Below are positions 33,798-36,044 of a stretch of DNA of 64,000 nucleotides, in pieces. Position 1 is the stretch's first letter. The number at the start of each line of letters is the position of its first letter. Below the pieces are notes generated by a model. The model was not told the DNA's origin. It saw only the letters and a program-made list of their open reading frames with translations, and did no database searches. A program made the position numbers and the translations under genes. Source of the DNA: the human T2T-CHM13v2.0 reference genome, Homo sapiens; the NCBI RefSeq assembly GCF_009914755.1, contig NC_060932.1, one strand, 5' to 3'.

Positions 33798-34523
33798 ACA
33801 CATTTTAATTTCTATTTGAAGCATTCATGCTTCAAGCTCAACCAGCTTTGGTCAATTTGTGATTTTATTTGCCATTGGCCTTCTACATAGTTTATGATAC
33901 ATTAGTTCACATTTGTTTTTAAGCCAACATAGGAAGCATTTTACAGGACTTTTGTTTTCATCTAGGCTTTTTATTTCCATGTTTCCTAGATTGTGCTTAT
34001 AGATTACACTAAATCTCCAGGTGAATGAAAAGGACTGGTCATGATACTTATTTAGAGGAGTAGTTTTTCATATACCATGTTGAAAGTGTCAGGAAGAGAA
34101 GATCCCTTGTCGGTCCAACAAAGTCAAACAAATCAAAACCTGTTAACACTAGGGATTGGGCTGGGAACAATTCATCAGAGAGTATCATAGCACTGTAGGT
34201 CTCAAGAGGGCATTTAATAGCGCCCGTGGCAATAACAAAGAGATGCAGAGAAATTCACTCACCAGATCTTTTGGCAGAAAAAAATAAATTGATGAAGGCA
34301 GGTTATTGTTGGGCCCATAGGGAGAAATATTCCCACAGGTAAGGAAAAGTAAGCATCATACTGGAGATTCAGAGAAATCAACAGTCTATAAAATTAGTTT
34401 ACAGCAAAAACCAAAAAAAAAAAAAACCTTGGTTTTCCTTAGTAGGTTTCTAGTGAACATAATTTTTAAGAACCAGAACAAGAAAGCAACAAGAGAAAAT
34501 TAATGAAATAAAAAGAAATTATG

Positions 34524-35624
34524 GCTTCCGAGTTCCAAGATGGCAGAATAGGAACAGTTCCAATTTACGGCTCCCAGCGTGAGTGATGCAGAAGACGGGT
34601 GATTTCTGCATTCCAACTGAGGTACTGGGTTCATCTCACTGGGGCTTGTTGGACAGTGGGTGCAGGCCACAGAGTGTGAGCCAAAGCAGGGCGTGGCATC
34701 GCCTCACCCGGGAAGTGGAAGGGGTCAGGGAATTTCCTTTCCTAGCCAAGGGAAGCCGTGACAGACAGTACCTGGAAAATCGGGATACCCCCACCCTAAT
34801 ACTGCACTTTTCCAGCAGTCTTAGCAAATGGCACACCAGGAGATTATATCCCGCACCTGGCTTGGAGGGTCCCATGCCCACAGAACCTCGATCACTGCTA
34901 GCACAGCAGTCTTAGATTGAACTGCAAGGTGGCAGTGAGGCTGGGGGAGGGGTGCCTGCCATTGCTGAGGCTTGAGTAGGTAAACAAAGTGGCTGGGAAG
35001 CTCGAACTGGGTGGAGCCCACTGCAATTCGAGGAGGCCTGCCTGCCTCTGTAGACTCCACCTCTGGGGGCAGGGCATAGCTGAACAAAAGGCAGCAGAAA
35101 CTTCTGCAGACTTAAACGTCCCTGTCTGACAGCTTTGAAGAGAGTAGTGGTTCTCCCAGCATGGAGTCTGAGATCTGAGAATGGACAGACTGCCTCCTCA
35201 AGTGGGTCCCTGACCCTCGAGTAGCCTAACTGGGAGACACCTCCCAGTAGGGGCCGAATGACACCTCATACAGCCGGGTAGCCCTCTGAGACGAAGCTAC
35301 CAGAGGAAGGATCAGGCAGCAACATTTGCTGTTCTGCAATTTTTGCTGTTCTGCAGCCTCTGCTGGTGATACCCAGGCAAACAGAGTCTGGAGTGGAGCT
35401 CCAGCAAACTCCAACAGACCTGCAGCTGAGGGTCCTGTTAGAAGGAAAACTAACAAATAGAAAGGACATCCACACCAAAACCCCATCTGTACATCACCAT
35501 CATCAAAGACCAAAGGTAGATAAAACCACAAAGATGGGGAGAAACCAGAGCAGAAAAGCTGAAAATTCTAAAAATCAGAACACCTCTTCTCCTCTAAAGG
35601 AACATACCTCCTCACCAGCAATGG
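34524..35624 (+). promoter_or_regulatory. L1PA5/6 5'UTR (internal sense and antisense promoter, YY1 site) and first 30 codons of ORF1
   Basis: ttccaagatggcagaataggaacag start; ORF1 ATG at 35534 (MGRNQSRKAENSKNQ); L1 similarity stops at ccagcaatgg. Confidence 0.9.
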
Positions 35625-35714
35625 GAATTCTCATCTATGACAGTGACCCAGAGTCCAGTTCATTATTAGTGAACTTAAAACCCATAAACATGTTAGTTGA
35701 TCTCAGTATATATG

Positions 35715-36025
35715 TGATATGGTTTGGCTCTGTGTCCCCACCCAAATCTCACCTTGAATTGTAATCCTCATAATCCACATGTCAAGGGTGGGACCAGATG
35801 AACGTAATTGGATCATGGGGTGGTTCCCCAATGCTCTTCTTGTGATAATAAGTGAATCTCATGAGATCTGATGCTTTTATAAGTGTCTGGCATTTCCCCT
35901 GCTTGCACTCATGATCTCTCCTGCCACCCTGTGAAGAGGTGCCTTCCACCATGATTGTTAAGTTTCCTAAGGTCTCCCCAGCTATGTGATACTGTGATTC
36001 AATTAAACCTCTTTTCTTTATAAAT
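35715..36025 (+). mobile_element. THE1D LTR, truncated just after its ATTAAA poly(A) signal
   Basis: Starts tgatatggtttggctctgtgtccccacccaaatc; ends caattaaacctcttttctttataaat, lacking the terminal ~50 nt. Confidence 0.85.
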
Positions 36026-36044
36026 AAATAAAAAAGAAATCATG

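What the first reader, a model, noticed from the sequence alone, without database searches (positions are those of the whole stretch)
34510..36044. Chimeric L1-promoter / THE1D-terminator retrocopy: a possible non-autonomous composite element
Seen: one 14-bp TSD at an L1-endonuclease-like site (AT/AAAAA) encloses a complete L1PA5/6 5'UTR, 30 codons of ORF1, 90 bp of unrelated DNA, and a THE1D LTR. The LTR stops about 18 nt after its ATTAAA and is followed by an A-rich tail. The L1 consensus has no GT at the junction, so ordinary splicing does not explain it. Inference: a 1.5-kb RNA started at an L1 promoter, was polyadenylated at an LTR signal and was retrotransposed in trans. It came either from a 3'-deleted source L1 or from an RT template switch. 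It carries its own promoter and poly(A) site, so it could have spawned a small family.
Basis: partly seen in the sequence, partly recalled or inferred. Interest (0 to 1): 0.75.

Follow-up and report, generated by a model that had tools for sequence, protein, structure and literature searches.

The report
LINE-1 promoter fused to LTR terminator
A 1.5-kb insertion on chromosome 8 joins the front end of a LINE-1 jumping gene to about 400 bases copied from chromosome 5; I found no second copy, and it likely came from a LINE-1 that once sat at that chromosome 5 spot and was later lost, so it is an unusual fossil rather than a new family.

Summary
The structure is real. A 14-bp target duplication (13/14) at an L1-endonuclease-type site encloses 1.1 kb of L1PA5/6-like 5' end, 87 unique bases, an LTR cut 18 nt after ATTAAA, and a short A tail. 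The source of the last ~400 nt is contig C5 (chr5) 41,515,178-41,515,585, minus strand, 94% identical. There the LTR is complete, and no L1 5' end lies within 80 kb upstream. No sibling copy was found, so the family idea is not supported. Splicing is unsupported: the source has no AG at the join. New clue: at the source the join lies 2-10 nt behind a perfect endonuclease site (TTTT|AAAA; 0.4-2% by chance), where source and L1 share 7 of 8 bases (0.3%). Best reading (0.5): a now-lost L1 sat at that chr5 site and was read through to the LTR poly(A) signal; the L1 body was lost at that microhomology, either at the source or during or after copying. Rivals: reverse-transcriptase switch between two RNAs (0.33); insertion into an older L1 with deletion (0.1). 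Primate orthologues would decide and could not be searched. New variant of a known kind; interest 0.33.

The parts
34510..34523 (+). 5' target-site duplication at an L1-endonuclease-type site (AT|AAAAA)
34524..34531 (+). 8 extra bases ahead of the shared L1 start; origin unknown
   Evidence: no other exact or 1-mismatch copy of this 5' end in the genome; match to a hypothetical chr5 TSD 5/7, reached by 2 of 29 controls
34532..35533 (+). Complete L1 5'UTR (L1PA5/6-like; label recalled), 17 CpG left, as in relatives (mean 17.7)
35534..35623 (+). First 30 codons of L1 ORF1
35620..35627 (+). Junction 8-mer AATGGGAA; L1 relatives read AATGGAAC (10 of 29) or its CpG variants, the chr5 source reads AATGAAAC; 2 nt behind a TTTT|AAAA site at the source
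35628..35714 (+). Unique DNA copied from C5:41,515,577 downwards (minus strand); 4 differences in 87 nt
35715..36025 (+). THE1-type LTR (label recalled) copied from the same chr5 locus, cut 18 nt after its ATTAAA (36002-36007)
   Evidence: 95% to chr5, next best 88%
36026..36030 (+). Remnant A-rich tail
36031..36044 (+). 3' target-site duplication
35534..35764 (+). 76-codon open frame from the ORF1 ATG through the junction into the LTR; no evidence of function

Best explanation
This insertion joins an L1 5' end to about 400 bases copied from chr5, and is likely the only surviving product of an L1 that once sat in the TTTT|AAAA site at chr5 41,515,587 and was later lost from the human lineage. 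Shown: one TSD encloses both parts; the 3' part derives from chr5; it ends 18 nt after the LTR's ATTAAA; human chr5 has no L1 at the site; the join overlaps an endonuclease consensus and a 7/8 microhomology. Inferred: (1) an L1PA5/6-era element inserted at the chr5 site on the LTR's strand; (2) its promoter drove an RNA that ended at the LTR poly(A) signal, a 3' transduction; (3) about 5 kb of L1 body was lost by a join between ORF1 codon 30 and the target sequence; (4) ORF2p copied the RNA into chr8; (5) the source allele never fixed. Step 3 has two forms of about equal weight. (a) The source was already 3'-truncated, most simply because the nicked chr5 DNA primed inside ORF1; the template was then a 1.5-kb non-autonomous RNA moved in trans. 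(b) The source was full length and the body was skipped during reverse transcription or deleted later at chr8.
For: Source and direction: (94.1% over 408 nt; chr8 and chr5 agree against at least 7 of 8 paralogues at 14 columns; LTR complete at chr5). Endonuclease site: a TTTTAAAA cut lies 0-12 nt upstream of 0.4% of positions in 60 kb of chr5 sense strand, TTAAAA 1.9%, a lax motif 7%; it is the only TTTTAAAA in the local 1.5 kb. Microhomology on the ungapped junction diagonal: null 0.3%. The ATTAAA is the first poly(A) signal behind the site. Ages of the two parts do not differ (P 0.24-0.57). An L1 source explains why an otherwise unremarkable stretch was transcribed and copied. Literature, passages seen: 8.8% of polymorphic L1 insertions carry transductions (PMC12350158); sources absent from the reference are listed (PMC9311842); 0.46% of polymorphic L1s have internal deletions (PMC8219666); sense MaLR LTRs are strong terminators (PMC3517506).
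Against: The source L1 is not seen: chr5 is an empty, continuous, single-copy site. No sibling transduction exists up- or downstream of the LTR. The two statistics were computed after seeing the junction and overlap in sequence, and AT-rich DNA yields lax sites often (7%). The chr8 8-mer differs from both parents (2 changes from L1, 3 from chr5); internal priming predicts the chr5 form. The test of the 5' extra bases was inconclusive. Point estimates make the L1 part look older (2.9-3.3% against 1.4-2.2%), which form (b) does not predict. A donor-like site 2.1 kb upstream and an AG 15 nt upstream of the unique part show that a host RNA could also have supplied the 3' part.
Confidence: 0.5

Rival explanations
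1. Two-template retrocopy. ORF2p primed on a host RNA from the chr5 locus that ended at the LTR signal, copied about 400 nt, switched at the 8-nt microhomology to an L1 RNA (or the RNAs were ligated first), and ran to the L1 cap. No L1 ever sat at chr5.
For: Empty chr5 site and no sense-strand L1 5' end within 80 kb upstream. Microhomology. One TSD and compatible ages. The source lies about 82 kb upstream of, and on the same strand as, MACPF exons at C5:41,418-41,433 kb, which I recall as complement C6; a donor-like site lies 2.1 kb upstream. Nine two-RNA insertions were seen in a study that lists 99 L1 and 235 pseudogene insertions in an overexpression system (PMC11702581, passages).
Against: Leaves the endonuclease site at the source junction to chance (0.4-7%). 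No call shows that such a chr5 RNA exists; the Pfam search meant to place the upstream gene did not find it. Catalogued chimeras have the L1 at the 3' end (PMC13174262, sections 10 and 15 part 1), although that survey looked only 5' of L1s.
Confidence: 0.33
2. Two steps at chr8. A full-length L1 inserted first and made the TSD. Later a chr5 retrocopy primed in its A tail and attached inside ORF1, deleting about 5 kb.
For: The L1 part looks older: private non-CpG changes 26/886 = 2.9%, only 2 of 29 relatives as high; tree branch 3.3% against 2.6 +/- 0.6%. The chr5-derived part shows 1.4-2.2% per branch. Microhomology is usual at 5' attachment.
Against: The age gap is not significant (P 0.24-0.57). 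It needs a rare RNA, a hit in an L1 tail and a 5-kb deletion together. It does not explain the endonuclease site at chr5.
Confidence: 0.1
3. Splicing or read-through from an L1 still present upstream on chr5.
For: L1 splice products do retrotranspose (SpIREs, PMC5860796, passages). An AG with a pyrimidine tract lies 15 nt upstream of the unique part.
Against: No GT near the junction in 27 of 29 relatives and no AG at the source join. The 15 nt after the AG are not in chr8. The only L1 match in 80 kb upstream is a 68%-identical fragment on the opposite strand.
Confidence: 0.04

Closest known systems
L1 partnered 3' transduction (PMC12350158, PMC9311842; passages)
   Same: L1 sequence, then unique DNA from another chromosome ending at a downstream poly(A) signal, inside one TSD at an endonuclease site; 400 nt is within the reported 8-997 nt.
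   Different: The L1 3' end and its own A tract are missing while the 5' end is complete; no L1 at the source in this genome.
Chimeric L1 insertions such as U6/L1, Alu/L1, mRNA/L1 (PMC13174262; abstract, section 10, section 15 part 1)
   Same: Two unrelated sequences in the same orientation within one TSD; single events that usually do not spread.
   Different: Polarity is reversed: L1 supplies the 5' end and promoter, non-L1 DNA the 3' end and tail. [quoted passage not shown]
Internally primed, 3'-truncated L1 insertions (Srikanta et al. 2009; title seen in a reference list; content recalled, paper not held)
   Same: Would give an L1 ending inside ORF1 joined to target DNA by microhomology at an endonuclease nick, as inferred for the lost source.
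   Different: Here only a daughter copy with an added flank, LTR and tail is seen.
SVA / LAVA composite non-autonomous retrotransposons (PMC3287187, PMC4432496; search listings only)
   Same: Composite of parts of other elements with an LTR-derived 3' end (for SVA), moved by L1 proteins.
   Different: No VNTR or Alu part, and one copy instead of a family.
SpIREs (PMC5860796; passages)
   Same: Retrotransposed L1 RNA lacking an internal part.
   Different: Junction is not GT-AG and joins L1 to non-L1 DNA.

Membership tests
L1-mediated (TPRT) insertion | TSD of about 7-20 bp at an endonuclease-type site | tested here: met
   14 bp, 13/14, AT|AAAAA
L1-mediated (TPRT) insertion | Ends in an A tail 10-30 nt after a poly(A) signal | tested here: met
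   Match to chr5 stops 18 nt after ATTAAA; tail remnant is only 5 nt plus the A-rich TSD
Partnered L1 3' transduction | Unique 3' DNA traceable to a source locus | tested here: met
   C5:41,515,178-41,515,585 minus, 94.1%
Partnered L1 3' transduction | L1 3' end and first A tract between L1 and flank | tested here: not met
   L1 stops at ORF1 codon 30
Partnered L1 3' transduction | L1 directly upstream at the source | tested here: not met
   None in this genome within 80 kb; other primates not testable
U6/L1-type chimeric insertion | Non-L1 RNA at the 5' end, L1 3' end at the tail | tested here: not met
   Order is reversed
U6/L1-type chimeric insertion | Both parts arrive together in species alignments | not testable with these tools
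   No primate genomes held; divergence proxy inconclusive, P 0.24-0.57
SpIRE / spliced L1 chimera | GT donor and AG acceptor at the junction | tested here: not met
   GT within 12 nt in 2 of 29 relatives; no AG at the source join
Non-autonomous composite family (SVA/LAVA-like) | Several TSD-flanked copies sharing the junction | tested here: not met
   One copy plus the source
L1PA5/L1PA6 subfamily | Diagnostic positions against subfamily models | tested here: inconclusive
   ORF1 start MGRNQSRKAE shared with 15 of the 24 relatives where the start was located, of 29; 2.6% mean non-CpG branch; label rests on recall
THE1D LTR | Best match to the THE1D model among THE1/MST subfamilies | not testable with these tools

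The most novel reading that the evidence does not exclude
An L1 primed inside ORF1 at the chr5 nick, leaving a promoter-only L1 just upstream of an LTR terminator. That allele made a 1.5-kb non-autonomous RNA which L1 proteins moved in trans at least once before the allele was lost: a composite retrotransposon caught at birth, with one surviving copy. If so, reversed chimeras across the genome should point back to endonuclease sites and record lost source L1s.
Probability: 0.25. Interest if true: 0.55.

Novelty: new variant of a known kind. Interest (0 to 1): 0.33.

Why it matters
The locus itself is probably inert: one old copy with no sign of spread. Its value is as a worked example of a reversed L1 chimera (L1 promoter 5', foreign terminator 3'), a class that the most recent survey did not look for. 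It also gives a cheap test: if source junctions of such chimeras sit on endonuclease sites, they mark L1 alleles that were active and then lost, and they show how promoter-plus-terminator composites can start.

Tried and rejected
Family: rejected. Sibling transductions reading past the LTR or starting further upstream: none, both flanks single-copy (1 of 1 candidate each). An L1 upstream on chr5: none on the sense strand in 80 kb; further upstream not read. Splicing: rejected. Identifying a source L1 by its 5' extra bases: no second copy; TSD-remnant test 5/7, matched by 2 of 29 controls. Rebuilding the empty chr8 site from paralogous old repeats: the right flank gave only itself. A break hotspot at this ORF1 position, prompted by L023: a pattern search gave 20 matches; 5 read as intact L1s with small indels, 1 is L023, and 0 of the other 14 align to L1. 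The pattern was set so that L023 passes, has roughly one-third sensitivity and needs an intact 15-mer, so it only excludes a large hotspot. Placing the upstream gene with PF00388: no match on C5. Literature on a distal C6 promoter: nothing relevant among 15 listed. Six papers were not held.

Full report
1. Observation. A 14-nt direct repeat at 34510-34523 and 36031-36044 matches at 13 of 14 positions. With one mismatch allowed it occurs 3 times on both strands of the window, so landing on both ends of the element is not chance. The site reads AT|AAAAA, close to the TT|AAAA endonuclease consensus stated in PMC2912911 (abstract, background and start of results read). Inside are 8 unassigned bases, an L1 5'UTR (34532-35533) and 30 codons of ORF1. 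The L1 part is 89.5-91% identical to the 29 other loci fetched, out of 40 scored and 8,389 candidates; 28 of the 29 run on as L1 at the junction position, and 27 pass a stricter 600-nt test. Then come 87 unique bases, an LTR (35715-36025) and a 5-nt A-rich remnant.

2. Source. The unique 95 nt gave two candidates in the genome: chr8 and C5:41,515,489-41,515,577, minus strand. C8 is chr8 by the finding's annotation, so I read C5 as chr5. The match covers unique DNA and LTR together, 94.1% over 408 nt. The LTR part is 95% identical to chr5 and at most 88% to the other 38 scored copies. Chr8 and chr5 agree against at least 7 of 8 paralogues at 14 columns. At chr5 the LTR continues to the same end as its paralogues; at chr8 it stops 18 nt after ATTAAA, the first poly(A) signal behind the junction. 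The direction chr5 to chr8 through a polyadenylated RNA is therefore well supported. Sense MaLR LTRs are reported as strong terminators (PMC3517506, passages).

3. No family. Of 40 scored matches to the 221-nt junction probe, only chr8 spans the join. The chr8 5' end has no second copy with up to 1 mismatch. The 600 nt upstream and 539 nt downstream of the copied chr5 segment are single-copy. The tool warns that repeat counts are lower bounds, but the unique probe had only 2 candidates.

4. No L1 at the source today. Blast of the chr8 L1 part and of L1 relatives against chr5 from 10 kb downstream to 80 kb upstream found only Alu matches and one 68%-identical L1 fragment on the opposite strand. 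Splicing does not fit: 2 of 29 relatives have a GT within 12 nt, and the source has no AG at the join.

5. The junction. On the ungapped diagonal, L1 relatives read AATGGAAC (10 of 29; most others are CpG variants) and chr5 reads AATGAAAC, 7 of 8 alike; chr8 reads AATGGGAA. Random L1 and chr5 positions reach 7 of 8 in any of 9 windows 0.3% of the time. Two bases upstream at chr5 lies TTTT|AAAA. A cut of that motif lies 0-12 nt upstream of 0.4% of positions in the 60 kb examined; TTAAAA gives 1.9% and a lax motif 7%. Both tests were made after seeing the junction, so they are leads with numbers, not proofs. Together they suggest that an L1 once occupied this site. Priming of the nicked chr5 DNA inside ORF1 would explain both features in one step. 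Against that, chr8 carries neither parental 8-mer and is closer to the L1 form. A test of whether the 5' extra bases are a remnant of a chr5 TSD was inconclusive (5/7, reached by 2 of 29 controls).

6. Age. At non-CpG columns the chr8 L1 part has a branch of 3.1% against 2.6 +/- 0.5% for relatives (tree 3.3% against 2.6 +/- 0.6%) and 26 private changes in 886 sites. The LTR part differs from chr5 at 11 of 282 non-CpG sites, with branches of 1.4% (chr8) and 2.5% (chr5). Adding the 4 differences in the 87 unique bases, which I counted as non-CpG and could not polarise, the rates do not differ (P 0.24-0.57). One event is compatible; a somewhat older L1 part is not excluded. L1PA6 is dated to about 27 million years in PMC5860796 (passage), so by inference the insertion should be shared by apes and perhaps Old World monkeys.

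7. Mechanism. Best (0.5): a source L1 at the chr5 endonuclease site, read-through to the LTR signal, loss of the L1 body at the microhomology, copy to chr8, loss of the source allele. The ingredients are known: 8.8% of polymorphic L1s carry transductions, and 1,901 of 5,523 non-canonical insertions are 3'-truncated (PMC12350158, passages); non-reference sources occur (PMC9311842, passages); internal deletions mark 0.46% of polymorphic L1s (PMC8219666, passages). Rival (0.33): a switch between a chr5 host RNA and an L1 RNA. Two-RNA insertions occur in cell models (PMC11702581, passages). The source lies 82 kb upstream of MACPF exons on the same strand, which I recall as C6, and a donor-like site lies 2.1 kb upstream; no call shows such an RNA. 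Rival (0.1): retrocopy into an older L1 with deletion. Rival (0.04): splicing. These weights are my judgement; order-of-magnitude estimates put the first two close together.

8. Comparison and novelty. It works like an L1 3' transduction or chimeric retrocopy but fails the membership tests for a partnered transduction, a U6/L1-type chimera, a SpIRE and an SVA-like family. Law and Burns catalogue only sequence 5' of L1s (PMC13174262, abstract, section 10, section 15 part 1), and THE1D is absent from the 6 supplementary files held. Nine full-text searches (listings read) showed no paper on this locus. The library lacks most subscription papers; older work on chimeric retrogenes, transduction families and internal priming was not held, and bioRxiv supplements were not opened, so prior description of reversed chimeras cannot be excluded. 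Passages of 10.1101/2024.08.27.596794, PMC12016303 and PMC2837659 added nothing on this structure. Verdict: real, single-copy, new variant of a known kind, interest 0.33.

Noticed in passing
L023:1498-2594 (G000:C3:113,489,280-113,490,372, +): Another L1 5' end of the same type stops 4-8 nt before the chr8 junction position and runs into single-copy DNA; no TSD found within 1.5 kb either side. One of 29 relatives. A pattern search found no large hotspot. Unexplained.
   Followed up: partly
window 33790 down to at least 29800, minus strand: An older L1 (77-78% to the L1PA5/6-like relatives over ORF1 and early ORF2) lies head-to-head with the chimera, 5' ends about 730 nt apart.
   Followed up: partly
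window 35534-35764, +: The ORF1 frame stays open for 76 codons across the junction into the LTR; the same frame is open at chr5 to the same stop. Probably chance.
   Followed up: partly
L004 about 2070, minus strand (G000:C5 about 41,517,670): Strong donor-like site 2.1 kb upstream of the copied segment, with an AG and pyrimidine tract 15 nt ahead of the unique part; may belong to a distal first exon of the MACPF gene downstream (recalled as C6, unverified).
   Followed up: partly
L006 and L024, inside ORF1: Both L1 relatives appear to carry a roughly 300-nt high-copy repeat (Alu-like) inside ORF1.
   Followed up: no
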